Of a DNA stretch of 58,417 bases, positions 907-33,928 are shown one piece after another (position 1 is the first letter of the stretch; each line of letters starts with the position of its first letter). Origin of the DNA: Phoronis australis (Eukaryota > Animalia > Phoronida); the NCBI GenBank assembly GCA_002633005.1, contig NMRA01000444.1, forward strand, positions 1 to 58,417, read 5' to 3'. The position numbers were made by a program, and so were the translations under genes. Under the pieces are notes generated by a model. The model was given only the letters and a program-made list of their open reading frames with translations, was not told the origin of the DNA and made no database searches.

Positions 907-999
907 GGCACAGCACTACACCGTGCAGCAGAGCTGGGACGTACAGAGGTGGCGCGTGATTTGTGTGAAGCAGGCGCTAAGGTCAACAAGCAAGACAGG
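907..999 (+). CDS. Ankyrin-repeat exon ([31 protein letters not shown])
   Basis: ctgcag acceptor, gtaata donor, 93 nt, phase 0-0, matches ankyrin consensus TxLHxAAxxG...GAxVN. Confidence 0.92.
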
Positions 1000-3900
1000 G
1001 TAATAGAAACTACTTGAGACGATTTTATAATTGAGACAATGATATCTTTGTTACAAAGCTGTAAACTATCTGAAGTTTAACTAAACATGTTGTGTGTAAA
1101 TACACTTTCTATTTCTCATGATTTCGACATGTATTTTTCAATCTGTACCCGGTACATGCATCTTAAGAAACAGTGAGGTTTGAATTGTGTCAACAATATA
1201 TTTGGCGACTTAATGTTGATATTTTTCTATTCTTAATGGTAATCGTCCATTCAACATTACAACTTTATATTAAACAGGAAGCCGTTAAACCGGTGTATAA
1301 ACACAACATGGAAGGGTCACTGTGAAGTTATGGAGGCGCTCAGTAATTTCTGACAGTCGACGTCTACACCATGTTCTGTTCTTACTTCAACGTTTTAAAA
1401 TCACCTGTAACACTTGAGTGTTGAAATCATTACAAGTATTGTAGCGTCTTAGAGGGGTCAGTAATGTTTCATTTATGTCACCTTACAAGTTCACTTTGCC
1501 GCGTGTATGTTAATTTGCTCTAAACGTTGATCGTCCATTCACACATCTCCATTATATATTACATAGGAGGGCTGGACACCGCTGCACTGTGCAGCAGAGT
1601 GGGGTCATACACAGACAGTGAAGTGTCTTGTGGAACACAACGCTACTGTGGATGTCCGTACACAGGTAATTAATGACACACGGGTTGTTTAGTTGAACTA
1701 GTTGTTTACACAAGAGATGATTAAAACTATTGAGTAACAAATTTTGTTGATATTTTCCCAATTTAATATCCTTAAACAATTTTAAATTAAATGTCGTCTG
1801 CTTTCCAACAGAGAACTGCCAAAGCTGCAACCGAACATTTCAGTTGATTCATTATTGTTGTTTTATTTACCTATATATATTCTACATTTCGTCAAACAAT
1901 AGTTTCCTTCAGACGATCTGGATCGCCTCATTTAGTTTCAGATTTATTTTCTACGTTATTTTGATTGTCCAACACTTTACAGTGCACAATTACTTGCTGT
2001 GTGTTACCAGCCTGTAACGAGACGGGGAACACTGAACACGCTCTGTTGGTTTGTTCTAAAACTCAACATTTCCCTGTTGAAATCATTACAAATATTTTTA
2101 GCGTCTTAGAGGGGTCAGTCATGTGTCATTTATGTCACCTAACAAGTTCACTTTCCCCCGTGTATGTTAATTTGCTCTAAACGTTGATCGTCCATTCACA
2201 CATCTCCATTATATATTACATAGTGGGGCTGGACACCGCTGCACTGTGCAGCAGAGTATGGTCATACACAGATAGTGAAGTGTCTTGTGGAACACAACGC
2301 TACAGTGGATGTCCGTGATAAGGTAATTAATGACACACAGGTTGTTTGGTTGAACTAGTTGTTTACATAAGAGATGATTAAAACTGTTGAGTAACTAATT
2401 TTGTTGATATTTTTAGCATTGTAATGTCTCTAAACAATGTCAAATTAAATGTCTTCTGCTTTCCATAGCGGGGCCAAACACCGCTGCACTGGGCAGCAGA
2501 GGGGGGTCATACAGCCGTCGTACAGTGTCTCATCGAACACCGGGCCAACGTGAATGTCTGTGATGAGGTAATTATTGACACACAGGTTGATGAACACAAT
2601 ACGTGACTAGGCTAATTATTGCGTGTTTTAATCAAATATTCACAGATTTTAATTTTGTTTGTAAACGTTGAATTCACGGCACGTGTAGTGACGTGCACGT
2701 GACGTGACGTGCTCGCGACATTAAGTAATTAGAAACAGTTTTCACTTCACGTGGGGTTGTACATTGAGCAATGGTTCTTTACTTGCATTTTCATAGCACC
2801 CCCTAAATGAATGTGGCTCAGTTGTTATGTATAACATAAACTTGTGATATTTCAAATCATCTTTTCTCTCGTGTAACTACAACAGATCCGCATTGAAGAA
2901 ATCTCGCTCATTTATATCTGAGTTTAAATGCAGTTGTAGTCGTGCTTTGTTGAGTCGCCCGCTTTATACAGTAAGTATGCAACTGAAGGCGAAGTTCTGA
3001 AACAGAAAGGTATAAAGCGTGGCGCTCTGTTGGCGCACCCACTTCGCTATACATCATGCTGACCAGCATTCTATCATTTTTGTTCATTTACTGTAGGATG
3101 GAAACACACCCTTACATCTGGCATCCCAGACAGGACGGGCAGCAATCGTGGAGCTGCTGGTCCATGAAGGCAGCTGCGACGTGGCTGCCGTAAACAAGGT
3201 ATCTCAAGAGTGCTGTACTCAGAATTTAGTTAATGCTGCAATAAATGTGTATTCAATGAACATTGAGTTCGTGGAAATGTTCACTCATAATAAATATCTG
3301 ATCAAAAATGAACAACCTCTTTACGTGGAGTTATACAAAGAGTCACTCCTTCACTGCAAGTACCTTCCCACAACACGCAGTGAAACCAATGCCGCTGGTC
3401 TCATCCTACTATTGGGACATAAACTTAACAAACCAACGACGCCATAAGGCGCCAAACACAGGCACACATTTTGATATTCTCACTTCATAAAAAGATGCAA
3501 ATTTTTTATCAGGTCAGTGCTTCCAATCAGGTGTGCCCTTAGGGACCTCAGTAAAGAATTTTTGTTAAGGTTGCATTAAAATGCGATTATTTTAACACTC
3601 AGTTTTCAAAGTCTTGTAATTTCGTGGTTTACTTTTTTAATGTCACTACATTGCTGTGTAATATGTTCCTGTCATGATCTGATTTATATATTCTGTGATG
3701 GGGTAATGTGGGGGATGAGTTAGTCAAAGCCCAGGCTTTTGGAAGGGCACGTCCTGTTTTCACAATTCCAGAAGTCTGCCTTAAACTACATGTAAACCCT
3801 GGAAAAAGGAGAGCGCTGTAAACCTAAATCACGCGCCGTGATCTTTTGTGCTCCATCGTAAATCCAGGGTATTCGAATATGTTTGGTTTACCCCTGACGC

Positions 3901-9900: not shown

Positions 9901-12900
9901 GAAATTATTGCAACTCATAGTGTACATTGTAATAACAACGAAACAGATTTGTTATTAGTTAATTTGCTATTTCATATATCATGTCCTTTCAAACTTTTAC
10001 TGAAACTGTTGCATCAATGTCATTTCATACTCTGTTGGGAAATTGAAAATCGTTTGAAATCCATCCTCGTCGTTTGCTTTGATTTCGGTTTGTATTTTGA
10101 AAGTTCGTTAGGATACTTTTCACTGAAATTGCGACGGAATTTCTCTTTCCCAAACCTGTTCAACTATTGAAAAACGTCGGCGTCAGCCTTCAACTTTGCA
10201 TTCTTTAGTCATACTTAATTGTCCAAGATTGTTTGCGTCCGCTGGGAAATTTAGTGTAAGATGCATGCTGCAGAGTCGAGGTGTCAGCAAGTTTAATTAT
10301 TTTTTTTTTTAGTTTCCTAAAAGAAAGTTTGACCATTTGTGATATAAGCCAATGTGTCTATGCGTTCCATGTATTTTTACCCGATCTGCCCGTATTACGT
10401 GGAATTAATAATATACAAAAGTGTACAAAACTCATGCTCATGAACAAAGATGTCCAACTGCGCAAATAAGAGAAGCCTAATGCATTCGTACAATGTACAT
10501 TTTGCATATGTGAAACGTTTGGGTGGACACTTTCCTTGCAGTATTAATTCGGATACACAGGTTCCTAAATACAAAAAGCTTACACTGCGCTGCACTGGGT
10601 GACACTTTACTTTGTTTACGTACTCGAAAAGTTTTGCTTCCTCTTCCTCTTCAGAAGTAAAGTGTGTTACGATGTGCCAAATAAAGAAATCACATACAGC
10701 ATGTGCTCTAGTGGTCGAACAAAGGTCAGTGGCAATCTGTATACGTATTGTGTATTCCTGAAACACAGAGATTTAGTTTCTGATACCTATTCCCACAGCG
10801 ATAAAAAGTTGACCCAATTCAGTTGACGAGATATAGGCTGAGCATGATCTGATACATGTATATGATAAGGCATGTTGAGATGCGAATCACTGCTTGTCCG
10901 ACATTCCTTACGCGAAGACAATCAGAACACATCGGCCGCGCCGCGCATCAACCGCTCATCAGTCACGTGACGGCCAGCCGATGTTGGGTTGGGTGTCACC
11001 GGATCAGCAACAGATAATCTTACGATTTAGGTTTCCATCAAGAATCGAAAAACACTTTGCCTAATGGTGCTTCAGTTGCTGATTGTTGACATCGACGTCA
11101 CGGTCTGCCCTCCCGAAAATGTGCAGACCACAGTCCGCCTGCCATTGACATGAACAATAGCCATCTGTTTGTATAACACAATGCTATTTCAACGGTGATA
11201 GTGCCTTGATACTACCCACCCATATCTCTGTTCCTGTTTCGCTTTCCATATACGCGTGTGTTTAGGTTTTGGAGGCCCTAACTGACCAGTCTGCGTATTT
11301 TGAAAAACAACTATGGATTTTAACACAGCTAATATTTCAATGTTTCTGAAAGTACATTCCAGAATTTTATTTTTTACCTTTTTACTACTCTACAATTATG
11401 TGCGTTACATGATTTAACAAAAATGGTGGGTGTGTTGATACCAAAACATTGGTATGAAATTTCCTTTCATATAGACCTACCAGTTGAGCTCACAAAAGTG
11501 CTGTTAGTGTGTTCTAAAATAACCTTTATTTTCTTTATTTTATAACTTATTTGAAAATCGTGAAAAGTCTAATTGGACAGCTTTTTATGCAAGAATGCAA
11601 TAATTATAAAATAACTCCGTACTGTATTTGAACAGTGCGCATAGAATAATAAGTGAGAGTTTCATCTAAGTACTTGCATAGCTAGGCCCATATCCAGACG
11701 GTACATATTCGAAAAATGTTTGAGTGAAGTCAAGGAGCAAAATTTAAAAATCAAATGAACAAATAGGTTACGACACCTGCTGGTGTCTGTTGCCAAAGAG
11801 AAACACTAGCCTCCACGTGATGCGTGCACAAAGATTAGGGCAAATCACATTGACTCATAAAAATTTTATCATATATGCTATCCTTTTTGTTTGTTGTCTA
11901 TTATTCACCTATAATGTAGTCAGGTCACAATGTTAATGCTTAAATACAGCTAAAAGAAGTCAGTAACTTAAGTGAAGTTACCATTTCATTCTCTAGATTT
12001 GTGTAATCGTCGTCTTTCATGTTTAGAAGGTCAATCCACCAGCCTCAAATTTCTCAAGGAGCGATATACATGTACGTAAGTGTCCAGTTCATAGTGGTGC
12101 GGTTCGCTTGCTTGTTACTGTGCAGTGCATTTTTTGGTAAGAAGTAAATTTTCAAAGTTGTGTTACTCTTCAGGATTGACTTGAAAGTTAGTAAATCCTG
12201 TTTTGCAGGAAGGGCAAACAGCTTACGATGTTTGTGACGAAGAGGAAATCAAGACCGTTCTTAAGGTATGAAGTGGTGATAAAACAGTCGATCCTTCTTG
12301 TGAAATCCAGGTCGCTGTTTATTATGACTTATTTCATAACCGTCGTGTCAGTATCAGCAATCTGAAGGAATCTCATTAGCGTTGTCATTAATCAAACCTG
12401 CAAAAGCAACAATTGGCTCCCTTGTATTGAGGTGTCTCACTCCAAAAGATGACGTAGGCGTTGTAAAAGTAGCAGAATGTGCACTCCAACTTTTGCTCAC
12501 ACGGTAGTTACATGACGTGCATTACTGCAGGCACTGCAAGGGAACAAACAACAGATAGTGCATAATATTAACATTGCATTTCTTCTAGTTTAGCTGGTTT
12601 AATTGAAAATTAAGAACACTATCATAAAAGACATTTACTTCAAATAACTTAGATCTGACGCAGTATTGTTTTCCAGTAGGATTTTACATGTACTTTAGAG
12701 TATCGAGTCTACGGCACACCCCAAGATAAATCAAACAACGCCGTTTCCGTCAGTTCCGTTTTTATTTACTTCACTCTAGTTATTCCTGATGAAATGACGT
12801 GCCATAATGACTGTAGTTACACAATATTTCATTTTTTGTGTAGATCTACTGAAAACGTCCAAATTTCCAGTCCATAGTGTACAGCGCACTTAGCGGCATA

Positions 12901-15900: not shown

Positions 15901-18900
15901 AATTCTATTGATGTCAAAGCATTTTTCTTTTAGTTCCAAATTTCAAAAACAAACGACCTGTCAACTGCTCGTCACTTCACGCATGTTTCTCCCACATTCC
16001 AAGGTCCCTCTCAGAGAACGAAGAAGTCCGAGAAAACGAGGCAAAAGACCACTAAAAAGGCAGGAATTCGGTTAATTCACAATTCATACATGTAGTTCAG
16101 AACCAACCCCTTGTGTTTTGTTCTTTTTGTAATCAGTAAAAGGTTGACATTCTCAAACCTTTGTCCCCCCTATATTTAAGGCTACATGCCCGCATACAAG
16201 GACGTTTGTTAACACACACGTATGCTTGAGTAACTTGAAAAGACTTCAAAAACAACTATTACTTCGATTGCGCACATGAGCGCTGACTCAGCGGATAAAG
16301 TTGCGGACGGTGAGCCCTTTAATGTACAAGTAAAGTACGGTCTTCACGACAACATCCTTTGGTTTCTTAATTGTTATCCATATTGTTCGGAAAAATTTGC
16401 TTGCTCAGCCGTGTTTATGTGTGATGTTTTGCCTTCAGCACAGATTTCCCTTCGTGCATTTGCTTGAATTTTAGAGATGATGTATTAAAAACAAAATAAA
16501 CTTACGATGAAATGTTATTCACCAAAATGATTTCAAGGGACAATAACTTAACAACTTCCGAAATTTGACCCATTCATGTTGAAAAAGTGCCGACTAAGTT
16601 AACAAAGATCCTGAAACAGGTTTACAACCGTTGATGCAAAGAAGAAACAAATTTACCACAGTACTTGGACGCGTTTGAACATCAACATTACCCGTGGTAT
16701 CAGCAGGAACACACCGGTTGATTTTCATTGTGGTCCTTATCAGCAGATGAAGAGGCGGACGACAAAACAGACTCGGCCATAGCATTTCTGCTAGGTTAGA
16801 CGGAATACGCGAAGTCCGTTCAACCATAGTCTATGGTTCAACAAGGAACAGGCGAAATCGTCCCAAAGGGTGACAGCCTTACACATATTTGCCGAAAACA
16901 GTAACATTTTTACCAATGAAATAAAAGTGTAGTAAATTGCACTCAGAAGTGTAAATATACTACCGCAGATTTAGAAAAACGTAATAACGCCTTAGGTGCT
17001 CTGTAAGGACGTGTGAAGGCGCTTGTGGGATCACTAGTACCGTTGTACGACCAAAAAAAATCAATGCCTCGATAATGTTTCAAGTTTTCGTTTTAGTCGA
17101 ACGTCAGTTGCGAGAACTTTTCAAGTAGGTCTTCAGAATCTGTGCTGTCTCCATAATGTTTGCGACCTCCCGAACTGAGTGTGCTTTGTACGAATCCATT
17201 TTCGTGAGCATCATCGCAACTATAAAAACCTACAATACAAACCCAAATTTAAGGTCAATCTGATGCATTCTTTTGAGTCCGCAGACGATTACTACATGTA
17301 AAGATGAACCAAAAAGGATCTCAGTCAACTAAAAATTTGCGTAATGAGTCCTCTTGAAGAACGTTTGACAAAACCCCCAGAACAAACTTACATGATCGAT
17401 GTAACGAGAAAACTGGTAAAATTAATCAATTTCAGCTGCCAGATCACCTAGTTTTAGCACAGAGCACGATGTGGACCGTGCTCAACTGCACGATCTGTCT
17501 AGAGAGACGGAGACTTGGCAGCGATCGCCTGTGGAAAAAAAGCAGAGTGGTGAGTAATTTTATCGCTAGTCCAACAGCTAGACTCACACACTTTCATAAA
17601 GTATATTAAATCTACTTGATATACACTAGAAATGAAAACTCCACGTCCTCATTACGACGACACCACGTTGTGTATTTTCAAGAAACACTTCTCATAGTTT
17701 TTTCAATTTCATTACACGCCAACGTAGTGGACGGCCTACCATCCTCATTTGGGTATAACTACTGATGATGCGCATGCAAAATTATGAGTGCAATATGAGC
17801 TGAAGATTTATGGAACATTGAAGTGAATGGTAATGTATACTAAACCACTATTACATAAGAAATCGATGTTTTATTCGACTGTTACCCAAATTTTGATAGA
17901 CGTCACTTCTGTTCCTATAGCAATCATTGATGGAGCATCTGGCGGAGATTTTCGGTGCGAAGGGGTGCAAGTTACAGTACCGCCAAATGCAACACCTGGA
18001 TCAATAAAAATTGCAGTAGTAGACCAGCCGTTATTAGGGCAAGCAATACATGACAACACGAAAGGCAATGCTTACCTCCATCGTCAGGGAATACAGGTGA
18101 CTCATGGCACGGATGAAAATGCAGTGCTATCAAAACCGGTGGAAGTGCGAGTGTCTGTTAAATCAATATTGGAAGAAGCAGGGGTTCGAGGACTAGACAG
18201 ACCAGATTTTCTTATACATTTGTTTCTGGAAAAAAATGGGACAGTAACCGACTGCAGTTCCGAGAGTCATATCGAGCGACGTGGGCAGGAAATATCCTTC
18301 TGCACCAAGATGTTTGGTTGTTTTCACATTGTGTGGGGTCTCGCTAAAAATGCTGTCAAAACAATCATAGAAACTATCAAAAAGTCATACGTGTGCCACA
18401 TATGCCCGTTCTTAGAAGGCGAAAGAAATGGGTTCATAGTAAATCTATATTGTCATGGCGTAGGCGTGGTGTGTTCTGCTGAAGCTAAACACGATTGTGT
18501 ATTTGAAGGAGAACAGGTGCGCGTGACAGATAAAACTGTGCTCCAGTTTGAAGTTAAATGCAGGTGTATTAAGAGTAGTGGCACGATAAAAATTCCCTCC
18601 AAAAGGTTTGAGCTTCACAGAAGTCGTTGCGAAAGTAAAGGCATACGGTTTTCGGAGGCTGAGCCCGATGTCAAACCACTTGTAGGTGAAAAGGTTCAAC
18701 TGGAGGTGAAGGAGTTAACCTGGGGTAAAAGGCTGCTATACAAAGCTGTGCCGGTTCATGTAAGTACTTTCCAAATTACTTGGGTGCTGTCACGCTTGAG
18801 CACCACGCTTGTGGTATATTACTAGTGTACCATGAGTCCGCATTTCTGGAACTTCGATTAAAACAATTTGACTTGGGAATGGTGGACATGAGATATAACC

Positions 18901-21900
18901 ATTCAATCAACCCTGCTCCCTGATCCAAATTCAGTTTGCTTGATCAATCAGGCTCATAAAAATATGAATTAAATGCTGTAACCCACAATGTAGCAGGCTT
19001 TGCACAGAATCAACCACATAGGGCTATGTAGATACATGTACATTGCGGGTCATAGCGGTTTTTGTGGAAAACCGCTTACAGTGTTACCTGTTTGTCAGTC
19101 TAAGGGTGTATAAGGGTTATGCAACGTCATCTCGCATGATGAAACACAACTCTCAGTCTTAATTGCCAGTTAAATTTTTGCCTGTGTAAATGGTGTTTTA
19201 ATTTCTCTTTCTGAATACTGAGTGGTGCACGGTGGTGCAAGCATCACTTCTGAGAGGAAAATGCATGCATTTGGGATGCAAAATGTTGAACTTATAGAGT
19301 TGTTACGTAATGAGGTGTCTTAAGGGAGAACCGACGTATTTGGAACAATACAACGTTGTGTTGAATGTGATTGTTACACTTAAGGAGGAATTTTTATACG
19401 TTACAGTATAACTGACAAAGTTTAAGCAGAGTAAACCCATACGATAGTGAACATTAGTAGGGGCTTCAAACCAATGGCATTTCACCAAGTTTTGCCACGT
19501 TCTTCCATCTGCTCTGTCCCTTATTTCAAATTATTCCCTTTCGCCTCTTCTTCCGCACACTGTTCGGCGTCAACAACACAAGTTTTCACAAAAGAAAGCA
19601 AATCATAAATCTATTCATACATGTAAACTGTAATAGGTCTGAGGTTTTCACTGGGGCGTGTGTTGCCCTGTTTGACTGATCTACCGAGAAGGGATGGAAC
19701 TGTATTAATAATTATTAATCTGTGTGCAATTTCGATTGGTTATAGGGGCAGTCAGCCTCCGGGACGGAACCTGTTACACCTTTTACACGCCATATTACTG
19801 GTAAGAAAGATTTAAAGTGTTCTTAGGTTGAACTTCATTCCGCTTCGTAGAGTATTCTGGGAAGGCATTATATTGATATAGATTATTGCGAAAAAGGAAG
19901 ATCTCTCGAGACGCAAAACCAAGCGCTTGACAATTAGAATTTTGCGAGTGCGATCGGAAGCTTACTTTCTGGCCTGCCGTAGAAAAGTCTCCTTTATCTG
20001 GAGTGATTCTACGGCAACACTGGAATGTTAAAATATATAATTGTGGATAATATTACCTTTGTTAAAAAATGGGTTTTCTCTGCGAGAGCAGCTCAAATAG
20101 GATTTAGCGGTTCACAAAACACACTCCGGTACTGTGTTCGTCACACAGTGCCCCAATAACTTGACCTCGAAACCAAAAATCTTCGCTCACGGAACGGAAG
20201 CGATCATTTCAAGACGATAATCCAATTTCGGTAAATTCCCAATGTACGAATTAGGTGATCATATAGGCACAAGCCGTATGGCCACTTCGCTAGGTGCGCG
20301 GGTGGGCGTTCAGTAATGCTATGTTAGATGCTAGGCCCTAGCTAAAATGTAGCCAACGCCACGTGTTCTCTTTTAAAATGCGCTGCGATATCTCTCGAAA
20401 TTTTGCGAAGTCTTTCTTTTTAGCGAGGTCGTAGTGTTAGTGAACGGGAGGTATATCTTAGTTCTAGCAAGTACGTCGTGGTCGATTGATGTGTGGTCCG
20501 TTGCTGGGACACACAATCAAAATGTAAAGACCTAAACGTCCACAAGATTGAAAGACAAAAAGAAAAAAATCAGATAGTGAGATATGTAAACAGGATAGAC
20601 AAATTATTCAATAGGAAAAGAGCATTTAGTGGTTCTCGACATGTCGAGAATTAGTAGTAGTACGTGTTTTAGTGTATGCTTTGGGCTAATTGTTACATGA
20701 ATTCTGTCTTAATAAAACATGCAATTTTCTTTATTACGTATGAAAATTACCAGGTGGATATTTTCACGATAGTGAACCGTGAATTTTCGTCCCAACAAGC
20801 AACTCCACTAAGCCTATCAGGTGAATAACACCAATGAGTCATCTTCGCTTGCCCTTGTCACACAGTGAATACTGTCAGCAGAATGTACATGTATACACTG
20901 TGTAATTTCGTAGGGATTTGGGTCTGCGATTTTGCCAAACTTGTACCATTTAACATTTTTGGACTCCAAAAAAGGTTAACTTTCGAAATAGACCTCAAAT
21001 TAGTACTACGGAAATATCCACAGGGTCTTCTCAGGATATACCTTGCAATTACAGCAATTCATATGCACGTACTCCACGGGACGTTTCATTTTTAGCTCGA
21101 ATGCACGCTGTTCTCACATTTCACCCCACGTTACTAAAGTCTAGTGAAAGTTCCGCCAACTAAGAACTTCCGCCTTCTTTGCACATCTGCAGCAAGTACG
21201 AGAAAGTTGTGCGAAGGTTGTTTTGACACAACTATTAATAAGTCAATTTTTTTGTAATCGGGAAAATTATTTTAAAAAATTCGTCGTAAGTCGATACTAA
21301 TTTGAATTTTTGATTTCACAATGAAAATTCTACGACAAAAGAATTTTCTTCCACTGGTTCTGAAACACCAATACAACCTTTGAATAGTGCACCCAGCCTG
21401 TATGACTGGCTACCATAAAAATGAGATAGATTACGTTGCTACATGTTTTTTCTTCGTGTTGACGAACTTAAGCCAGTGAAAACAATCCAGACATGAGCAT
21501 AGGCGGTGACTTTCAAAAGTCAATTCGTTGTCCTGTTTGTCTGTTCTTTCTTACTGCCATCTTTGTTTTGACCATTGTTGATGAAAACTTGAAAGAAGAA
21601 GACCTTCAATATTTGATTGTGCAGGGTATAGTGTGTGATTTATGCTGAATTGTTCAGTAGTTCTTTTAAGGACCATTTCTCAGTTTACACAGCGGTCACT
21701 TTACATTTGACAGAAAAAATGTTCACTTACAGACATTAAATTATAAAGAAACCGATTTTGGACTAGTAGCTTCGTTGCCGTCGATTATTTTTAATCAAAA
21801 ATTTCAAATGATTGAAACGAAAACATTTTTTATATACATATATACACACACACACATATATATATATAGTACAGTGTACATTTAGTTTAGTTTCCATGAC

Positions 21901-25400: not shown

Positions 25401-28400
25401 TTCAAAACTTTTGTGAATGGTTAAGAAAATATCGGTGCAAAACATTGTCCAGTGCAAATTCATCAGCACATTTTTGCAGATATGTTTTTGTGTTAAGAGA
25501 CGAGGTGTACATAAGGCATGTATTAACATAACTAAGTTCAGTAAGGACATTTTGTGTTGAGTAACAGGATCTTTTCGCTAAGCGCATTGTACTTCAACTA
25601 AACAATTTATATTATTTTGAAAATTGGTGATCAATTCACTACATGTGTTTTAGAAATTGAAACTGTTTGAGAGGCAAGGAAAAGTACCCATGCGCGTACC
25701 CGGGGGGCTTGAATGAGTCCATATGTGCCAAAGTGGGCGAAAAGGTCCCGAGAGAAACCAAAAGTGCGATAAAACTAAAGAGGCAAGAATTTGGCGATGC
25801 TAAGCAGCTAAACTAAGCCCCCTCTTTTTTATTTTTTATTTTTATTTTTTTAGTCGGTAAATTTGTTCTGTACGTGGCGGAAGTCTGCAAATTTACTGGA
25901 TAATCTGCAAATCTGGCGTTCAGAGTACCCTAATGTAGTTTGTAGAGGATAGTGGCATAACATGAGCACAAACCTTTCGAGACATTCAGTTTGAGATAAA
26001 AAAGAATGAGAATTGAAACGAACACTGGAGCTTTCAACTAACAATTAGCAACGTTTGTCGTCTAAGTGTCAGCAGGAAATGTGGTTTGGTGACAAATCTA
26101 TGTAACGTCGCCAAACATGTAGCCAGTCCCCTATTGAAGGAGAAAACTTCTTGTCAAGTTGTTTTTAATAAATTCCGAGAACAGAGTCTTTGCTCCGGAC
26201 GAGGTTGTAACATCTATCTTTATCATTGCGCAATTTATGAATGAATACTCCTCCTCAGAAAACTCTGCTGGTGGCTTAGAGTTTTCTTGCAAAAGATCCT
26301 GTTCCAGACTCGAGAAGTTTTTTGTATGAAGCTCAAATTGGAGACCGTTTGTATTTGAAAATTATTCAGAGTTAGGTAGGTCATAGACTCATTGGCAAAC
26401 AACATTAGTGCCAAGCCGTTGACGATTACACTTACAGGTGTATGTCACCATAGCGACATGTAAAGACCTCTATTTTGAAAAATCATCTTAAAAATTTTTC
26501 AATGGAAACGTCTCCTGTGTCGTCTGGTCTTTTCGAGTATAACAGCAAGTAGTAGAACATTATAATTTAATACTGGAGCATGTGTAACTTGACACAGCGT
26601 TGGATCCTGTGCAAACTAGTAGAAGACAGCTACAGTACCAGCCTGTTAACTTATAATTGTGTCAATTTGTTCTCAGGAATTACGGACCCGGCAACCGAAC
26701 GTCATCACCAGCTGTTACGAGAGATATCTGACCGTCTCATTGAACGGGATTTTGACAGACTAAAGCAAGAGTGTACACGTTGGATAAAGTAAGAAAAGCA
26801 TTTTTATTGTGAATTATACGTGCACCGTGCATGTCTGCTAATAATCGCTACGCTTTAAAGTCCTGCTCTCACACGTTGTTAACCCTTATTAAATAGTTAG
26901 AGAATGTTAAAAGGATCCAAGAAGTACCTACCACATAACTAATACACGATCCGTACTCGAAAAAATTCTAAATGAACGCGCCACTCACGATTCGCACCCG
27001 AAGAACCACCGCCATTTTGAACTTGCCACGAACCCGGAAGTACAATTTATTCAGGAACCCAGGCCGAAAAAACGCCGTCAGTGCGACTGGAGCAGTGCCT
27101 GTACTTTTACCAGCCAGCAAACGGGGATAAAATAATCGACAGGGTGCCTTAATTTTAATAAAATCAAACTACGGAAAATTTTATCGAATTTGCTGATGAA
27201 ATATGGCGAATAAATTTTGACAGAAATTATTTTGCCAGACTCGGGACCGCAGCCTATCGGACCCGGTGCAGATCGAGACCAGACACTGGCGAACGGTAAA
27301 TGCGTGCGGTTGCAAGCTGTTTTGTCGAAATAAAATGGTCAAATCATCAATGCTGCATATATTCAAGGGTAGTTTCAGACACTTGCATGAAATTACTTGC
27401 TGGTTAGTCATTTGTCACACTGCCGTGGCAGACCTTAGTTAGCCTCAGTCACCAGCTACCAGTGAAGACTATCGTCAAAATACACCTTGTTAGTAGGCCT
27501 ATACAGTTTTGCGTGAAGGCTACCCTTAGGCCTAACTCGCTCAAACGAGGTTTATTTAGAACTTGGGTACATCTAGCGAACTGTGCAAAGTTGTTGGCTT
27601 TCAATAGACATTTTCCCAGACTTTATATGAGCGCACCAAGCCTAAAAGAATGGGGGGCTGGAATTTTTGGGAATGTTTATCTTTTACTGTAAGATTCTTA
27701 ATTTTGGTACTTCCTGTCTCTAGTGGAATATTGTCTCATTTTCTACTTTTTTCGAAATTCGTGCTTCTGTGACTGAGGCAGACCTTTTTCTAGTTCTCCA
27801 AAAAGGGGGCTCGTTCGAGCACATAAGTATGACAAGTCCAATACAACATGCTATCATTTTTTATTCATTAACCCAAAATGATTCAAACTTTTAACATAAT
27901 AAGTAACTTAAAATGCACAATACTTTACAACGTTTAGCATTACAAACACTATTCAACAGCAACAGTTTCCATGATATGAAAGTGGACATACATGTAACTA
28001 TTACCATGGTGACGGAATAGTGTTTCCTTACACCAGAATTTGACAAGCATCATTTAAAAAATACGAAGTTGCAAGGAACAAGAATTAGAGGCTTGAAGCT
28101 TCACAATCCAACATAGCTTATTTCTCAAATTAAGATTATTCATATTGTTGACTTGAGCGATAACCTGAATTAAGAAGCAATAAGTTACAAAACATGACTT
28201 GAAAGCAATTGAGACTTAAAATTTTGAAAAATATGAATCATTTTGTGACACCGAATCAAGTCTTGAACAGCAGTTGACAGTCAAACAAAAAACCATTTCA
28301 AAATTATTTCAATTATTTTTTTAGCTTAGTGTAAGATCACCTGAATGGGAAATTTACAGTAAAATAATTCGAATATATCTTATTTTTTTGCACAAAAACA

Positions 28401-31400
28401 CGAAAATTGAACAAAGTTTCTGTTTTGTAGCAACGTTTGTCAAAATGTATCAAGTTAAATCTTCACAAATTACATTGAACATGCCTTTCAGTTCAGCAAT
28501 AGTCGCCATGTTGTCGGTGCCGCCAGAAATGAGACAAAGTCCAACGGTAATTGTGAGTTCATTTATCACTTAATGAGTAACAACTGCGAGGCTGAAATTT
28601 GGTGAACACTGTTAAATCGTGCAGAATAGTGAGTAAAGATATGTCTAACTAAATTTCACCGTAATTTGTTGGCGAAAACAATTTACACAAAGTTTTAAAC
28701 TCGTAACTTTTCCCGCTGTCCTCCAATATGGCCGACGCGATCCAAACAAAGTGACCCAAATTTCGCCACAAAACTTGAAATAACTTTCCACTGCTTGCCC
28801 CAATTTTGATACTTTTTCGATTTTTACTGAGTAGAATGTACTACGTTTCCGATGATAGCAAAGTATTTTTTTAAAACGAGAAAAAAATAAAACCGAAAAT
28901 AGATTGGTTCGACTCATATTGGTTCCTAGGTTCGACCGGCCTACGTAAGGAACTAACAACCAATGCTATTTTTACAGACTAAGTACGCGTAACATTCCAA
29001 AAAAATCAACGACTACTAAAGTCTACAAACTATAAATACACTACACATGCAAACGAATCACGAGATATTACTAATAAAACAAAATAATGAGGACTTTTCG
29101 AGCAAGCCATAGCACATTCAGTTACAAGGAAAAAATAGCGGCGTTCAGGACAAGTTCCTGAACTGATGAGCCGGAAATGTGGGTACGGAAATAACCAATG
29201 ACAGCCGGTAATTATGCGGTCACAGAGAAGGGTCAAATACTGTTAAAAACCGCTGTTGGCAAGAAAGACGAAAAGAATATAAAGAAAGGGTGTAGAAAAT
29301 AAGAATTTATGTAGTAAGTATTTTTTGGTACTGGAACCACAAGGGCAGTTTGAGAGCAGGACTTTAAAGTTATGCTGAGCTCTGCTTTGTCCAATTAAGA
29401 ACCGCAAATTGCTACGTGAAATAAAATGCGCATCCAGCTTTGGAATAAGTCAAAAACAAAAGATATCCTCTCCAATCCCAGGATGAACAACAGTAAATAA
29501 AAATTGTCAATCTGCCGTATTTCACGCTTCCATTTTTGTCAGAGACGTAAAATGAAGCCAGTCTCCATTACGTTAAGCATGGTGTCTTAAGCTTATAGTC
29601 TAATTCACATAAGAGCTCCCAATATTGCTTTAAATCTCAACCAGAGGACTTTTTCGAGATTAATACACAGGCGGCGCATCATAGGCTGTTGGGGGGATAT
29701 AGGCCCCCACTTTTTTCAGTGCTTTACCGCCTATGTACTCGTGGAAAAATTCAGTAATGTGTATAGGTTGTGTGTAGGCTCAATGGGGCAGACTGGGTAA
29801 GATTTCGTACTTTCATGTGCCCGTTCATCAAATGCTTTTAGAAATGTTCCATTTCTCCTCTCAGTTTCCAATCTTTAAGAAATTTAGATTGGGGCATCAG
29901 ATGAACGCCAAAATGTTATCCAGTTGTCAACGATAAAACAACTCTGTTATACAAATTATTTACATGTATGGTTAACGGCTGAATATGGCGGGTGAGTAGA
30001 ATATGAGCTTTTTAGGGGTGATTTTAGAATCACGATGTTTGCGTCTGCATACACGTGCACGCAAATTCTTCAACTGTAAATGAAGTGAATGGAAATGTCT
30101 TGATTAAAGGCCAGCAACACTGCAGGGTATAACAAGCACTCATGAACTCCTCGAACAACTCGAGAGGCAAGGAGTTATTAGATCTGGAGAGTACAGCAAT
30201 CTAATTGATATACTGGGCCTGCTCGATCTGAACGCTCTTAAGGATACAGTGGAAGGCCTATCACGTGAAATAAAAGCACAAGAAATGAGAGGTAATTTTG
30301 CCCTATTACTTGCAACCACTCAACTGTTATTAGTGACTAAAAGTATATGTTTTCTATGAGTTTACTTTGAGTGTCTTTATGGTTTCAATGCTATTGTAAC
30401 TGCAACGGCTGGTGAGTAAAACGAGCAATGATACTCGTTCTCCATGCCAAATTATAAGGCCATTGACAGCCCTTGATGTTAAGACCAGGGTCGACCTCGT
30501 CCGCCTGGTGCATGACAAACCTCCAATAAGAAATAACAATGGTTTAACTCCTGAATGATTTCGTGTATTTCTGACGTGGCCATGATTAATGTAAATGGTA
30601 AACGTCATTTTCTTTTGACAAAAATGGCCTCAAACCGACATTTCCCGTGGCTCACTAGTTTAAAGTCCTTCTCTCACGCGTTGTTAACCCTTGTTACATG
30701 GTTAGATGATATTATAAGGATCCAAGAAGTACTTACCCCGTAACTAACACACAATCCGTACTCGAAACAAGTTTAAATGAACGCGCCACTCACGATTCGC
30801 ACCCGAAGAACACACCGCCATTTTGAGCTTGCCGCGAACCCGGAAGTTCAAATCATTCAGGAAACCAGGCCGAGAAAACGCCGTCAGTGCGACTGGAGCA
30901 GTGCCTGTACTGTTACCAGCCAGTAAGCGGGGATAAAATAATCGACTGCGCGCCTTAATTTTATTAAAATCAAAGTACGGACAATTTCATCGAATTTGCT
31001 GAAGAAATGTGGCTAAAAATTTTTGACAGAAATTATTTTGCCAGACTCGGGAGAGCAGCCTATCGGACCCGGTGCGGATCGAGATCAGACACTGGCGAAC
31101 GGTAAATGCCTGCGGTTGCAAGCTGTTTTGTCGAAGAAAAATGGTCAAATAATAAATGCTGCATGTATTCAAGGGTAGTTTCAGACACTTGCATGAAATT
31201 ACGGGCTGGTTAGTCTTGTGTCACACTGCCGCGGCAGACCTTAGTTAGCCTCAATCACCAGCTACCAGTGAAGACTATCATCAAAATACAGCTTGTTAGT
31301 AGGCCTATACAGCTTTGCACCAAGACTACCCTGGTCACTGGCCACAGCGCTCGCTCAAACAAGGTTTATTTAGAAATTGGGTACTTCTGGCGAACTGTGC

Positions 31401-33928
31401 AAAGTTGTTGGCTTTCAACAGAGATTTTCCCAGACTTTGTATGAGCGCACCAAGCCTAAAAGAATGGGGGGGGGGGTGGAATTTTGGAAATGTCTATCTT
31501 TTACTATAAGATTCAGTGGGTATGTTCAGAGATAGGAATTGCAGACTCTAAATTTTGGTACTTCCTGTCTTCTAGTGGAATATTGTCTCATTTCTTACTT
31601 TTTTTCGGAATTCGTGCTTCTGTGACTGAGGCCGACCTTTCACCGAGTTCTACAAAAAGGGTGCTCGTTCGAGCACGTAAGTATGACCAGTCCAATACAA
31701 CATTTTATCACTTTTTATTCATTAAGCCAAAATGATTCAAACTTTTAACATAATAAGTAACTTAAAATGTACAATACTTTACAACATTAAGCATTACAAA
31801 CACTATTCAACAGCAACAGTTTCCATGATATGAAAGTGGACATACATGTAACTATTACCATGGTGACGGAATAGTGTTTCCTTTCACCAGAATTTGACAA
31901 GCATCATTTAAAAGTATGAAGTTGCAAGGAACAAGAATTGGAGGCTTGAAGCTTCACAATCCAACAGAGCTTATTTCTCAAATTAAGATTATTCATATTG
32001 TTGACTTGATAACCTGAATTAAGAAGCAATAAGTTACAAAACATGACTTCAAAGCAATTGAGACTTAAAATTTTGAAAAATATGAATCATTTTGTGGCAC
32101 CGAATCAAGTCTTCCACAGCAGTTGACAGTCAAACAAAAAACAATTTCAAAATTATTTCAACTATTTTTTTAGCTTAGTTTAACATCACCTGAATTGGAA
32201 ATTTACAGTAAAATAATTCGAATATATCCTATATTTTTTGCACAAAAAACTCGAAAATTGAACAAAGTTTCATTTTTAGCAACGTTTGTCAAAATGTATC
32301 AACGTTAAATATTCACAAATTACAAAGTAGCCGATTGAACATGCCTTTTAGTTCAGCAAATCGCCATGTTGTCGGTGCAACGAGAAATGAGACGAAGTCC
32401 AACGGGAATAGTGAACACATTTATCACTTAATGAGTAACAAGTGCGAGGCTGAAATTTGGTGAACACTGTTAAATCGTGCAGAATAGTAAGTAAAGATAA
32501 ATCTAACAAAAGTTCACCGTAATTTGTTGGCGAAAACAAGTTACACAAAGTTTTAAACTCGTAACTTATTCCGCTGTCCTCCAATATGGCCGACGCGATC
32601 CAAACAAAGTGACCCAAATTTCGCCACAAAACTTGCAATAACTTTACACTGCGTTCCCCGATTTTGATATTTTTTCGATTTTTACTGAGTAGATTGATGA
32701 TAGCAAAGTACTTTTTCAAAACGAGAAAAAAATAAAACCGAAAAAAATTGGTTCGACCCATATTGGTTCCCAGGTTCGACCGGTCTACGTAAGGAACTAA
32801 ACACCAATGCTATTTTAACATACTAAGTACGCGTAACATTCCAAAAAAATCAACGACCACTAACTACAAACTATAAATACACTACATCAGCAAACGAATC
32901 ACGAGATATTACTAATAAAACAAAATAATGAAGACTTTTCGAGCAAGCCATAGCACATTCAGTTACAAGGAAACTATGGGGGCGTTCAGGACAAGTTCCT
33001 GAACTGATGAGCCGGAAATGTGGGTACGGAAATAACCGATGACAGCCGGTAATTATGCGCTCACAGAGAAGGGTTAAATACTGTTAAAAAATCGCTTTTG
33101 GCAAGAAAGGCGGAAAGAATATAAAGAAAGGGTGTCGAATATAAGATTTTATGTGGTAGGTATTTTCGGATACTGGAACCACATGGGCAGTTTGAGAGAA
33201 GGACTTTAAGCTTGCCTTGTCAATCAGGACCAGTCCAGATTATCGCAGTCACTGTTTTTAAGCAAGAGGTGGATAAAACTCATCTGAAATAGTCACCTAT
33301 AACTTTACTAAATGGTTTTGCCCTCCTTGCAGTTAGAAACCAGGACAGTCTCAATATTTGGGTTATGCATTCGGGACATAGTAAGAACAACTGGACAATG
33401 TATAGACAATACATAACAACACGATGGACCCAGTGCCCTGTTAAATTGGCAAAACGTACACTATTGAGAAACTGTTCAAGACGCTTTTAGAATAAAAATA
33501 GCTGTTCGTAAGTCCACACAGTCAAGTGGGCTTTTTGGAACGTCTTTGATCTCGTGTACAAATTATACAAATTAGCAACGAAATATACCCCTAACCAAAT
33601 CCGGACTTATCTGTTGGGGCGGACATAACACACCCAATACTATGTCTATCCGAATGTAGGCGTGGCATAATTGTACTGCCATAACCAATTGCCACCAGTC
33701 ATCAATTCCATGCCCACACAGGTTGTCAATCAGCCACCTTTCTCTTGCCATTATTTTTGTCTATATGTTGACAATTCGCGCACCATACACATAATCAAAT
33801 CAGCGATCACATTGTCAACATACGTTATACGGTGTAGACCTCTCAATTTATTAACAGGACCACCGGATGAGGCAGTCGAGTCCCACAGCCAGAAGTTAGA
33901 GGAGGATACTGAAAGAGTCATTACGTAA
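907..33928 (+). CDS. Multi-exon gene, 5'-partial: ankyrin repeats - ZU5-like - possible UPA-like - DED protein. Exons 907-999, 1567-1665, 2224-2322, 2469-2567, 3097-3198, 12209-12265, 13951-14089, 17900(or 17921)-18759, 19746-19800, 26677-26788, 30110-30291, possibly 33333-33380, 33858-33924/33928
   Basis: All exons are AG/GT-flanked, and intron phases chain without a stop (0,0,0,0,0,0,1,0,1,2,1). Translations give ankyrin consensus, ZU5-like and DED-like sequence. No start codon in the window; 3' end unresolved. Confidence 0.8.
1278..1345 (+). pseudogene. Decayed ankyrin pseudo-exon (..[11 protein letters not shown]..)
   Basis: Upstream intron (atcgtccattcaac...tatattaaacag) is paralogous to the acceptor regions of the 1567 and 2224 exons. 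The GH-E-V-x-x-L remnant is out of frame with the acceptor and followed by a stop. Confidence 0.55.
1567..1665 (+). CDS. Ankyrin-repeat exon ([33 protein letters not shown])
   Basis: 99 nt, catag/gtaatt boundaries, canonical GxTPLHxAAxxGH. Confidence 0.95.
2224..2322 (+). CDS. Ankyrin-repeat exon ([33 protein letters not shown])
   Basis: 99 nt, catag/gtaatt boundaries, ankyrin consensus. Confidence 0.95.
2469..2567 (+). CDS. Ankyrin-repeat exon ([33 protein letters not shown])
   Basis: 99 nt, ccatag/gtaatt boundaries, ankyrin consensus. Confidence 0.95.
3097..3198 (+). CDS. Ankyrin-repeat exon ([34 protein letters not shown])
   Basis: 102 nt, tgtag/gtatct boundaries, ankyrin consensus. Confidence 0.95.
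4714..6778 (+). mobile_element. Decayed about 2.07-kb DNA transposon with about 66-bp TIRs (CACGGTG termini), 6-bp TSD AAGTGA and a THAP-like coding relic
   Basis: 4714-4779 is the reverse complement of 6713-6778 (8 mismatches). AAGTGA lies at 4708-4713 and 6779-6784. Relic peptides ILDCK..SLRIFP..W and GAFPTLF (5280-5546) and [15 protein letters not shown] (about 5824-5868). Confidence 0.85.
8007..8100 (+). pseudogene. Decayed ankyrin pseudo-exon ([21 protein letters not shown] / frameshift / KGVGVTFVN)
   Basis: Ankyrin-like translation, 94 nt, intact cag|gtaaaa donor, acceptor AG lost (ttcttgt), internal frameshift. Confidence 0.7.
12209..12265 (+). CDS. Ankyrin C-capping exon ([19 protein letters not shown])
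   Basis: ttttgcag/gtatga boundaries, phase 0-0, typical terminal GxTAxD motif. Confidence 0.85.
13951..14089 (+). CDS. Low-complexity linker exon ([21 protein letters not shown]...DESG)
   Basis: ttaccag acceptor and g|gtcagt donor; phase 0-1 is needed to join the ZU5 exon. Confidence 0.7.
14282..14509. mobile_element. MITE with perfect 50-bp inverted repeats
   Basis: 14282-14331 is the exact reverse complement of 14460-14509. Confidence 0.85.
15660..15710. repeat. TACATG/TACATT hexamer microsatellite
   Basis: Direct tandem repeat. Confidence 0.85.
17900..18759 (+). CDS. Large exon encoding a ZU5-like domain plus a beta-rich (possible UPA-like) domain
   Basis: Only long real ORF in the window. 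[25 protein letters not shown] and LSKPVEVRV match ZU5 hallmarks. Phase-1 acceptors at 17900 or 17921; cat|gtaagt donor. Confidence 0.8.
19746..19800 (+). CDS. Short linker exon ([18 protein letters not shown])
   Basis: tatag acceptor and g|gtaaga donor; phase 0-1 bridges the ZU5 exon to the DED exon. Confidence 0.7.
20301..20450. mobile_element. About 150-bp MITE (TIR CGTTCAGTAA..), copy 1
   Basis: Imperfect terminal inverted repeats; homologous to 23444-23594. Confidence 0.65.
21831..22418. repeat. Cluster of (TA)n/(CA)n microsatellites (about 21831-21868, 22098-22153, 22321-22357, 22380-22418)
   Basis: Direct observation. Confidence 0.95.
22462..23364. mobile_element. About 0.9-kb non-autonomous hAT-like element
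   Basis: Ends gaggcggacttagg...cctagatcctccactg resemble the CAGTGGCGGATCTAGG termini seen elsewhere in the window. Internal 22683-22780 is homologous (inverted) to 58279-58372. Confidence 0.5.
23444..23594. mobile_element. About 150-bp MITE, copy 2
   Basis: cgttcagta...tactgaacg inverted ends; homologous to 20301-20450. Confidence 0.65.
23862..25099. mobile_element. About 1.24-kb non-autonomous TIR element; core about 24159-24830 shared with 56119-56825
   Basis: TAGCC..GGCTA ends; internal inverted pair tgtgacgtcacgggaagtagggcaaaa (24021) and ttttgccccttttccggtgacgtcaca (about 25034-25060); long dispersed homology. Confidence 0.65.
26677..26788 (+). CDS. DED exon 1 ([38 protein letters not shown])
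   Basis: ttctcag/gtaaga boundaries, phase 1-2; matches the DED helix 1-2 pattern LLxxISxxLxxxDxxxLKxxC. Confidence 0.85.
26859..29363 (+). mobile_element. 2.5-kb non-autonomous Kolobok-like DNA transposon, copy 1
   Basis: TTAA on both sides, AG...CT termini, 13-bp perfect TIR AGTCCTGCTCTCA; end-to-end homologous to 30664-33205. Confidence 0.85.
30110..30291 (+). CDS. DED exon 2 ([60 protein letters not shown])
   Basis: taaag acceptor and g|gtaatt donor; phase 2-1 joins DED exon 1 in frame; matches DED helices 3-6. Confidence 0.85.
30664..33205 (+). mobile_element. 2.5-kb non-autonomous Kolobok-like DNA transposon, copy 2
   Basis: TTAA TSD, TIR AGTCCTTCTCTCA...TGAGAGAAGGACT, same orientation as copy 1, unrelated flanks. 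Confidence 0.85.
33333..33380 (+). CDS. Possible small phase 1-1 exon ([16 protein letters not shown])
   Basis: ccttgcag acceptor and gtaaga donor, frame-preserving; no homology support. Confidence 0.3.
33858..33928 (+). CDS. Post-DED exon ([22 protein letters not shown]); ends at TAA or at a gtaaga donor after 33924
   Basis: ttaacag acceptor, phase 1 compatible with the previous exon, coding-like composition. Confidence 0.6.

What the first reader, a model, noticed from the sequence alone, without database searches (positions are those of the whole stretch)
1567..2322. Hypervariable binding-surface codons in recently duplicated ankyrin exons
The two 99-nt exons differ at 10 nucleotides: 9 fall in amino-acid-changing codons (E/W pos1, W/Y pos12, T/I pos17, T/D pos32, Q/K pos33) and 1 is silent. 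The 65 intronic nt upstream of them are identical. Positions 1, 12, 32 and 33 lie in the beta-hairpin and helix-1 end that form the ankyrin ligand surface; 1, 12 and 33 match DARPin randomised sites. This looks like diversifying selection, as in variable ANK/TPR/WD repeat sensors of fungal NLRs.
Basis: partly seen in the sequence, partly recalled or inferred. Interest (0 to 1): 0.85.

Follow-up and report, generated by a model that had tools for sequence, protein, structure and literature searches.

The report
Natural DARPin-like hypervariable ankyrin exons
In what is likely an invertebrate animal, a gene builds its ankyrin binding surface one exon per repeat, and across copies of these exons six binding-face codons vary widely while the silent sites between them barely change, which points to selection for variety in a likely immune-type sensor predicted to be linked to a cell-death domain.

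Summary
The pair alone does not show selection (9 nonsynonymous: 1 silent, p=0.30). Same-species reads laid on exon 2 do support it. 25 of 37 listed exon variants fall in codons 1, 3, 8, 11, 12 and 33, and only 3 of 37 are silent. Diversity at the codons randomised in designed ankyrin binders is about 0.44, against 0.03-0.04 at fourfold sites. 28 of the 37 variants also occur in DNA contigs. Downstream lie a weakly supported ZU5/UPA-like exon, a DED-like domain and a hydrophobic tail; their splice link to the ankyrin exons is not shown. It works like fungal NLR ankyrin sensors and brown-algal exon-per-repeat receptors, but no NTPase domain was seen in the window. My searches found no paper on an animal case. 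This scan noted similar ANK-ZU5-UPA-death-domain genes twice in sea-urchin DNA. Ligand and immune role are untested.

The parts
907..999 (+). Ankyrin exon E0 (31 codons). The gene's 5' part was not found and may lie upstream of the window.
   Evidence: Pfam Ank E=1.6e-6; joint to E1 in 10 reads of X8
1418..1807 (+). First copy of the tandemly duplicated intron-exon-intron block (holds E1)
1567..1665 (+). Ankyrin exon E1, 99 nt, phase 0/0
2074..2465 (+). Second copy of the duplicated block (holds E2, runs to the E3 acceptor)
2224..2322 (+). Ankyrin exon E2, 99 nt. Hypervariable codons 1 (2224-6), 3 (2230-2), 8 (2245-7), 11-12 (2254-9), 33 (2320-2).
2469..2567 (+). Ankyrin exon E3, 99 nt. Framework identical to E2 over codons 1-15; second half diverged.
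   Evidence: joints E2>E3 and E3>E4
3097..3198 (+). Ankyrin exon E4 (34 codons)
   Evidence: Pfam E=3.7e-10; joints
3240..3271 (+). Candidate intronic polyadenylation site (AATAAA at 3240-3245; read ends pile at 3271), which would give an ankyrin-only transcript
   Evidence: table 6 (7 molecules at depth 19 in X6, 13 at depth 51 in X8)
12209..12265 (+). Capping half-repeat exon E5
   Evidence: joint 3198>12216 in 7, 3 and 13 reads of X6, X7, X8
17921..18759 (+). Large exon, predicted ZU5/UPA-like (280 aa), no His-Phe-Ser motif. Link to E5 inferred, not shown.
   Evidence: Atlas top hits ZU5/UPA at 0.94 but recognition score below threshold; no Pfam, PDB or homologue hit; weak HMM match
19746..19800 (+). 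Predicted linker exon (phase 0 to 1)
   Evidence: phase-compatible open chain
26677..26788 (+). Predicted first exon of a DED-like death fold
   Evidence: open chain; no DED hit on its own
30110..30291 (+). Second exon of the DED-like death fold
   Evidence: Pfam DED E=0.0012, 19.5 bits, below the 35.9 cut-off; Atlas rank 3-4 DED clusters at 0.87/0.84
33858..33924 (+). Predicted linker exon
36969..37077 (+). Predicted last coding exon with a hydrophobic 19-residue stretch before the stop (possible tail anchor)
   Evidence: mean hydropathy 2.51; open chain

Best explanation
These exons are one-repeat cassettes of an ankyrin array whose six binding-face codons (1, 3, 8, 11, 12, 33) vary widely among copies while the framework and silent sites stay nearly fixed, likely through diversifying selection plus gene conversion, in a gene that likely works as a variable intracellular non-self sensor signalling through a predicted ZU5/UPA-DED tail. 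Shown: symmetric phase-0 exons; a recent tandem duplication; sense-strand, spliced transcripts; site-specific nonsynonymous diversity in RNA and in DNA contigs; several exon classes sharing the first half of the framework. Inferred: conversion or unequal crossing-over homogenises the framework, and selection keeps new residues at the concave face. Exon duplication, loss or skipping would change the number and order of binding modules. Ligand binding would cluster or release a UPA-DED module that recruits a DED partner such as a caspase-8- or FADD-like protein. With no His-Phe-Ser motif, the stalk would act without PIDD-type self-cleavage. My odds: diversifying selection at these codons about 0.85; ankyrin array and DED tail in one protein about 0.7; immune or non-self role about 0.55.
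For: (40 of 56 variant rows shown, 37 in the exon): 25 of 37 lie in six codons; 34 of 37 change the amino acid when taken singly in the E2 codon; 3 are silent (7-14% of reads); mean heterozygosity at first/second positions of the six DARPin codons is 0.448 (X6) and 0.431 (X8), vs 0.042 and 0.026 at 16 fourfold sites. Codon permutation p=2.5e-5 in both runs. With every unlisted fourfold site set to a 10% variant, p=0.001 and 0.01. With the position set taken from a paper (ANK-N5C library, PMC4308713 section 12), p=1.2e-4 and 3.8e-4. Positions equally variable in generic ankyrin repeats but quiet here (15, 16, 19, 23, 24, 27, 31; entropy 2.9-3.6 bits over 379 repeats) show 0.04 and 0.02 vs 0.51 and 0.48 (p=0.0013; the six-codon set in this contrast was chosen from the data). 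In X8, depth is flat along the exon (about 830-900 over 2235-2314), so the contrast there is not a clipping effect. 28 of 37 variants are also in contigs of run X1 (kind guessed as DNA). E2 vs E3: no silent change at codons 1-15, 8 nt changed in codons 1, 3, 8, 12. An amphioxus protein (P0006, 18 repeats extracted) differs between its similar repeats mostly at the same positions, 11, 1, 12, 3, 8, 33. Fungal NLR ANK repeats show positive selection on the same hairpin and inner-helix surface (PMC4986451, passages).
Against: The reads are unphased, weighted by expression, and mix alleles, paralogues and at least three exon classes. In X8, only 37 of 1081 laid reads are 99% or more alike, and 16 variant rows were not shown. 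No codon model was run. The E1/E2 pair alone is not significant (p=0.30). Codon 31 (DARPin position 33) shows no listed variant. No joint from E5 to the 17921 exon was among the 15 of 106 joints shown, and my splice scan found no convincing bridging exon for the phase 0 to phase 1 step. The 17921-18560 bin has depth 3.2, 1.7 and 0.4, against 49-450 at ankyrin exons, so most ankyrin reads come from genes or isoforms whose tails are unknown. ZU5/UPA and DED assignments are below curated thresholds. There is no direct evidence on ligand or immune induction.
Confidence: 0.6

Rival explanations
1. Relaxed constraint and pooling of old paralogues: these codons are simply the freest positions of any ankyrin repeat, and newly duplicated repeats drift quickly.
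For: Positions 2, 3, 5, 10, 13 are the highest-entropy sites of natural repeats (PMC4308713 section 12). Within-protein repeats evolve under strongly relaxed purifying selection, with mean dN/dS below 1 (PMC5120217 passages). Reads were accepted from 80% likeness and include other exon classes (loose ends).
Against: Relaxation cannot lift nonsynonymous diversity about tenfold above fourfold sites in the same reads. Equally free off-face positions are quiet. 0 of 8 fourfold sites in codons 1-15 have a listed variant, against 10 of 10 first/second positions of codons 1, 3, 8, 11, 12.
Confidence: 0.1
2. Selection is real, but the changing partner is not a microbe: allorecognition, gamete or cell recognition, or a conflict with a selfish element.
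For: The sequence signature does not name the partner. Fungal repeat sensors of this type act in allorecognition (PMC4986451 passages; abstract start of PMC12222747).
Against: No signal peptide or extracellular module was seen in the exons found, and a DED-like tail fits cytosolic death or immune signalling (PMC11874512 passages). The 5' end is unknown, so this is weak.
Confidence: 0.2
3. The ankyrin array and the ZU5/UPA-DED exons are not one working protein. The variable array is mostly expressed as short ankyrin-only forms or joined to other tails, and this locus may be a weakly expressed or decaying copy.
For: Large drop in depth after E4/E5, and a pile of read ends 26 nt behind an AATAAA in intron 4. 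Many sense reads cover the introns at 982-1559. No bridging exon or joint was shown between 12265 and 17921.
Against: All exons are on one strand in order. From 17921 to the stop at 37077 the chain is open and phase-compatible. The 17921 exon is read on the same strand as the ankyrin exons. No start of a separate gene was identified.
Confidence: 0.25
4. Somatic diversification or RNA editing targets these codons.
For: Multi-allelic sites within single RNA samples. Somatic shuffling has been proposed, not shown, for brown-algal exon-per-repeat receptors (PMC3341825 passages).
Against: 28 of 37 variants occur in contigs of a run guessed as DNA. 11 of the 12 kinds of base change are seen in X8 and all 12 in X6, not one editing type. 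The assembled copies E1, E2, E3 already differ at these codons.
Confidence: 0.05

Closest known systems
ANK/TPR/WD repeats with high internal conservation in fungal NLRs (e.g. [quoted passage not shown] 2014, PMC4986451)
   Same: Near-identical ankyrin repeats; variable and selected sites on the hairpin and inner helix; likely concerted evolution with diversifying selection.
   Different: Here each repeat is its own exon, the array is followed by further domains rather than ending the protein, no NACHT/NB-ARC was seen in the window, and the host is likely an animal.
Ectocarpus ROCO-LRR and NB-ARC-TPR candidate receptors (Zambounis et al. 2012, PMC3341825)
   Same: One repeat per exon, exon duplication and loss, selected sites on the concave face.
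   Different: Ankyrin rather than LRR/TPR repeats; no Roc-COR or NB-ARC seen in the window; predicted ZU5/UPA-DED tail.
ZU5-UPA-death-fold proteins: PIDD1, UNC5, ankyrin-R/B/G, NLRP1/CARD8 (PMC9162469, PMC11874512)
   Same: Predicted order repeat sensor - ZU5/UPA - death fold, as in PIDD1 (LRR-ZU5-ZU5-UPA-DD).
   Different: DED-like rather than DD/CARD; no His-Phe-Ser cleavage motif in the exon; possible C-terminal membrane anchor; a hypervariable ankyrin array instead of conserved repeats; no detectable sequence homologue.
DARPin / ANK-N5C designed libraries (PMC4308713)
   Same: Five of the six positions randomised in ANK-N5C (2, 3, 5, 10, 13) plus position 14 are the natural hypervariable sites here.
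   Different: Natural and germline-encoded; position 33 is quiet and position 1 varies moderately.
Branchiostoma belcheri LOC109479344 (P0006; ANK, Roc, glycosyltransferase and CARD Pfam families)
   Same: Animal protein whose similar ankyrin repeats differ mostly at the same six positions.
   Different: Roc-type GTPase and CARD instead of ZU5/UPA-DED; annotated as uncharacterised; selection not tested here (protein only).

Membership tests
Ankyrin repeat (PF00023) | 33-residue repeat above the Pfam cut-off, helix-turn-helix | tested here: met
   5 of 5 ankyrin exons scanned pass the Ank cut-off; helices 5-11 and 15-23
Fungal NLR with high-internal-conservation ANK sensor | NACHT or NB-ARC domain N-terminal to the repeats | tested here: inconclusive
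   None among the ORFs read or the 10 stretches scanned, but only 906 nt lie upstream of E0 and the 5' end was not found
Fungal NLR with high-internal-conservation ANK sensor | Repeat array is the C-terminal domain | tested here: inconclusive
   The array is capped by E5, which ends in a splice donor without a stop, so more coding sequence follows; its link to the 17921 exon is not shown
Fungal NLR with high-internal-conservation ANK sensor | Highly similar repeats (over 85%) | tested here: met
   E1/E2 90% nt, 85% aa; E3, E4 and E0 are less alike (61, 44, 42% aa to the E2 query)
Fungal NLR with high-internal-conservation ANK sensor | Diversifying selection on the concave face | tested here: met
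   By a read-diversity proxy only; no codon model
Fungal NLR with high-internal-conservation ANK sensor | Repeat-number polymorphism between individuals | tested here: inconclusive
   Reads joining an E2-type exon straight to E4 (8, 4, 18 reads) could be alleles, paralogues or exon skipping
Fungal NLR with high-internal-conservation ANK sensor | Non-self-triggered cell death | not testable with these tools
   needs experiments
Brown-algal exon-shuffled ROCO / NB-ARC-TPR receptors | One repeat per symmetric exon | tested here: met
   99-nt phase-0 exons E1-E3, 102-nt E4
Brown-algal exon-shuffled ROCO / NB-ARC-TPR receptors | Inactivated repeat exons in introns | tested here: inconclusive
   The intron end at 1200-1277 matches the E2 acceptor region (0 of 2000 shuffles reach it), but the exon-like stretch behind it does not beat shuffles (314 of 2000), nor does the remnant at 1806-1836 (121 of 2000)
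Brown-algal exon-shuffled ROCO / NB-ARC-TPR receptors | LRR or TPR repeats with Roc-COR or NB-ARC | tested here: not met
   Repeats are ankyrin
ZU5-UPA-death-fold proteins (PIDD1/UNC5/NLRP1/CARD8) | ZU5 and UPA domains | tested here: inconclusive
   Atlas 0.94 to ZU5/UPA clusters with recognition 2085, below 2300; an ankyrin-ZU5 HMM ranks the exon 2nd of 501 against shuffles, hhalign probability 1%; single-sequence fold failed, pLDDT 33
ZU5-UPA-death-fold proteins (PIDD1/UNC5/NLRP1/CARD8) | C-terminal death fold | tested here: inconclusive
   DED E=0.0012 on a half domain, below cut-off; Atlas DED clusters rank 3-4, behind two unnamed bacterial clusters
PIDD1-type self-cleaving ZU5 | His-Phe-Ser motif (PMC9162469) | tested here: not met
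   No HFS in the 280-aa exon; the likely equivalent place, aligned by eye, reads Met-Phe-Gly
Canonical ankyrins (ANK1-3) | About 24 diverged repeats plus conserved ZU5-ZU5-UPA-DD | tested here: not met
   Five repeats and a cap in the window; no real match to a profile of 15 ankyrin ZU5 regions

The most novel reading that the evidence does not exclude
An invertebrate carries a germline 'natural DARPin library': a multi-copy pool of one-exon ankyrin cassettes, reshuffled by conversion, duplication and splicing and selected for new binding faces, wired without any NLR ATPase to a membrane-anchored UPA-DED module. With the amphioxus and sea-urchin look-alikes, this would be an undescribed, widespread class of variable intracellular immune receptors in animals.
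Probability: 0.3. Interest if true: 0.85.

Novelty: new variant of a known kind. Interest (0 to 1): 0.62.

Why it matters
Variable repeat sensors under diversifying selection are documented in fungi (ANK/TPR/WD NLRs) and brown algae (exon-per-repeat LRR/TPR). My searches (open-access library only) found no paper on an animal ankyrin equivalent. If it holds, invertebrates have a further route to a diverse recognition repertoire, using much the same positions that engineers randomise in designed ankyrin binders. The question of how invertebrates get specific, fast-changing intracellular recognition then becomes testable: allele series, ligand pull-downs and DED signalling assays.

Tried and rejected
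No whole genome is held for this window, so paralogues could not be counted. A metagenome scan with an exon pattern found 0 loci. Protein searches found no relative of the 17921 exon (0 of 2196 candidates; 2 irrelevant low-complexity hits) or of the second DED exon (0 of 80). The ankyrin profile search returned only generic ankyrin proteins, at most 70% identical over part of the query among the 120 listed. The single-sequence fold of the 17921 exon failed, so no fold search was run. The PDB sequence search for it gave 0 hits at E<=10. The look-up of sequencing runs listed no holder on record as RNA; the RNA evidence comes from laying raw-read runs of the same species label. 'Goes back 99' joints are not taken as proof of extra copies, since the window's own E1-E2 tandem would give them. 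A decayed exon at 1278-1360 and a remnant at 1806-1836 did not beat shuffles. The candidate exon 14539-14598 has a weak acceptor and does not solve the phase gap. Four papers searched for the numbered Binz DARPin positions did not give them in the passages seen, and one search found none. The set 2, 3, 5, 13, 14, 33 is therefore recalled, and is supported only by the DARPin repeats aligned and by the ANK-N5C set. Of 17 proteins examined for similar repeats, 13 had 4 or more extractable repeats and 4 had any pair at least 70% alike; only P0006 had enough pairs (67) to show a pattern. The fungal HET-ANK proteins fetched did not test it. No supplementary files were read.

Full report
OBSERVATION. 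The two exons are as described: 99 nt each, AG/GT bounded, phase 0, 10 differences, 9 in codons 1, 12, 17, 32, 33 and one silent in codon 27; 65 identical nt upstream and 16 downstream. They sit in a tandemly duplicated block of about 390 nt (1418-1807 and 2074-2465) whose intron parts differ at 23 of 291 aligned nt. On its own the pair is weak evidence: 9 of ~77 nonsynonymous against 1 of ~22 synonymous sites, p=0.30. Five of the 10 differences fall in the six DARPin-randomised codons, p=0.016.

THE GENE. Five ankyrin exons (907-999, 1567-1665, 2224-2322, 2469-2567, 3097-3198) pass Pfam Ank, and a capping exon follows at 12209-12265. Raw RNA reads of the same species label (X6, X7, X8) lie almost wholly in the orientation expected for a + strand transcript. 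They show joints E0>E1, E2>E3, E2>E4, E3>E4 and E4>E5 (15 of 106 joints shown). Further downstream, on the same strand, six exons from 17921 to a stop at 37077 form an open, phase-compatible chain. It holds a 280-aa exon whose nearest Atlas clusters are ZU5/UPA (0.94, commonest phyla Echinodermata and Porifera; recognition score below the reliable level), a DED-like fold (Pfam E=0.0012 on the second half, under the cut-off) and a hydrophobic tail. The step from E5 to 17921 is not shown by any listed joint and needs an exon I could not identify. The 5' end was not found. Spliceosomal introns, the DED-like domain and the ZU5/UPA neighbours suggest an invertebrate animal; this is inference, and no homologue was found.

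I laid two RNA runs (467 and 1081 reads) and two contig sets (34 and 48 contigs) on 2200-2346 at 80% likeness. Forty of 56 variant rows were shown: 37 in the exon, 3 in the downstream intron, none in the 24 upstream intron bases. Twenty-five of the 37 fall in codons 1, 3, 8, 11, 12 and 33, with two or three alternative letters at many of the positions. Codons 2, 4-7, 9, 10, 13 and 15 between them have none listed. Only three variants are silent (7-14% of reads). Mean heterozygosity at first/second positions of the six DARPin codons (1, 3, 11, 12, 31, 33; numbering recalled, checked against DARPin repeats) is 0.448 and 0.431, against 0.042 and 0.026 at 16 fourfold sites and 0.052 and 0.040 at other first/second positions. 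Codon permutation gives p=2.5e-5. A worst case in which every unlisted fourfold site carries a 10% variant still gives p=0.001 and 0.01. The set taken from a paper I read (ANK-N5C positions 2, 3, 5, 10, 13, 33; PMC4308713 section 12) holds 62-63% of the diversity, p=1.2e-4 and 3.8e-4. As a control for 'these are just the free positions', codons 15, 16, 19, 23, 24, 27 and 31 are as variable across 379 generic repeats but show 0.04 and 0.02 here. Twenty-eight of the 37 variants also stand in contigs of X1, a run guessed to be DNA, which argues against editing. Independently of reads, E3 and E2 differ over codons 1-15 at 8 nt, all in codons 1, 3, 8 and 12, with no silent change, while codons 16-33 differ at 19 nt including 3 silent codons. 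That is the pattern expected if the first half of the cassette is homogenised between exon classes while the contact residues are kept different.

LIMITS. The reads are unphased and mix alleles, paralogues and at least three exon classes (loose ends); most are only 90-95% alike. This is a family-level signature, not a measured dN/dS for this locus, and X6 and X8 are from one study. Depth at ankyrin exons (49-450) far exceeds depth at the 17921 exon (0.4-3.2), so most ankyrin reads belong to genes or isoforms whose tails I do not know. Copy number could not be counted without a genome. Codon 31 is quiet although randomised in DARPins. Codon 17 is a T/I dimorphism in helix 2, not a contact site. 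Codon 32 is a framework Asp that varies moderately.

MECHANISM. Shown: exon-per-repeat cassettes, tandem duplication, splicing, site-specific nonsynonymous diversity. Inferred: conversion or unequal crossing-over plus diversifying selection, as described for fungal NLR repeats (PMC4986451, passages); a change in module number by duplication, loss or skipping; and signalling through a UPA-DED tail. In NLRP1 and CARD8, UPA promotes death-fold filament formation, and DEDs assemble caspase-8/FADD/cFLIP complexes (PMC11874512, passages). PIDD1 cleavage needs His-Phe-Ser (PMC9162469, passages), which this exon lacks. Ankyrin repeats next to death-like adaptors in expanded invertebrate families have been proposed to recognise invaders (PMC8195603, passages), but the passages I saw do not analyse repeat hypervariability.

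COMPARISON AND NOVELTY. It works like fungal high-internal-conservation ANK sensors, and in gene structure like Ectocarpus exon-per-repeat receptors (PMC3341825, passages; PMC11378527 seen as listing only). It is not shown to be a member of either. An amphioxus protein returned (P0006) differs among 67 similar repeat pairs mostly at positions 11, 1, 12, 3, 8, 33, so the pattern is not unique to this species. Eight searches of the open-access library listed no paper on hypervariable ankyrin arrays in animals; I read listings, not all the papers, and subscription journals are not covered. This scan's own unchecked notes e1-9898587 and e1-7810322 describe similar ANK-ZU5-UPA-death-domain genes in sea-urchin DNA; I saw them after forming my reading and did not test them. 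No look-alike of this DNA was indexed.

VERDICT. Observation confirmed; interpretation supported at family level with a corrected set of sites; new variant of a known kind; interest 0.62.

Noticed in passing
window 3240-3271: AATAAA followed 26 nt later by a pile of read ends in two runs: a possible intronic poly(A) site giving ankyrin-only transcripts. The frame behind E4 is open past this point in the window's allele.
   Followed up: partly
window 982-1559: Sense-strand RNA reads cover the intron between E0 and E1 at depth about 25-250, a large share of exon depth: heavy intron retention or unspliced transcripts of the family.
   Followed up: no
window 36969-37077: The predicted last exon ends in a 19-residue hydrophobic stretch (mean hydropathy 2.51): a possible tail anchor behind the DED-like domain.
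   Followed up: partly
window 26854-29367 and 30659-33209: Two copies of a ~2.5-kb intronic element, 86-96% alike, on either side of the second DED exon.
   Followed up: no
window 14282-14509: Perfect 50-nt inverted repeat with 128 nt between the arms, read on both strands in RNA: MITE-like.
   Followed up: no
window 55643-56095 (+): THAP-domain fragment (Pfam E=7e-5); nearby 56245-56787 resembles 24306-24796, probably a transposon family.
   Followed up: partly
window 1200-1360 and 1806-1836: An older copy of the E1/E2 acceptor region precedes an exon-like but non-significant stretch, and the first duplicated block ends at a lost E3-type acceptor: possible dead cassettes.
   Followed up: yes
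window 46260-46652 (-): 130-aa ORF that resembles the zinc-binding end of a LINE reverse transcriptase (recalled resemblance, not scanned); overlaps a 75-nt tandem repeat.
   Followed up: no
window 38809-39561: Assembly gap of 753 N, downstream of the predicted stop.
   Followed up: no
protein P0006 (Branchiostoma belcheri LOC109479344): Uncharacterised ANK-Roc-glycosyltransferase-CARD protein with two alternating repeat types that differ mostly at the same six binding-face positions.
   Followed up: partly
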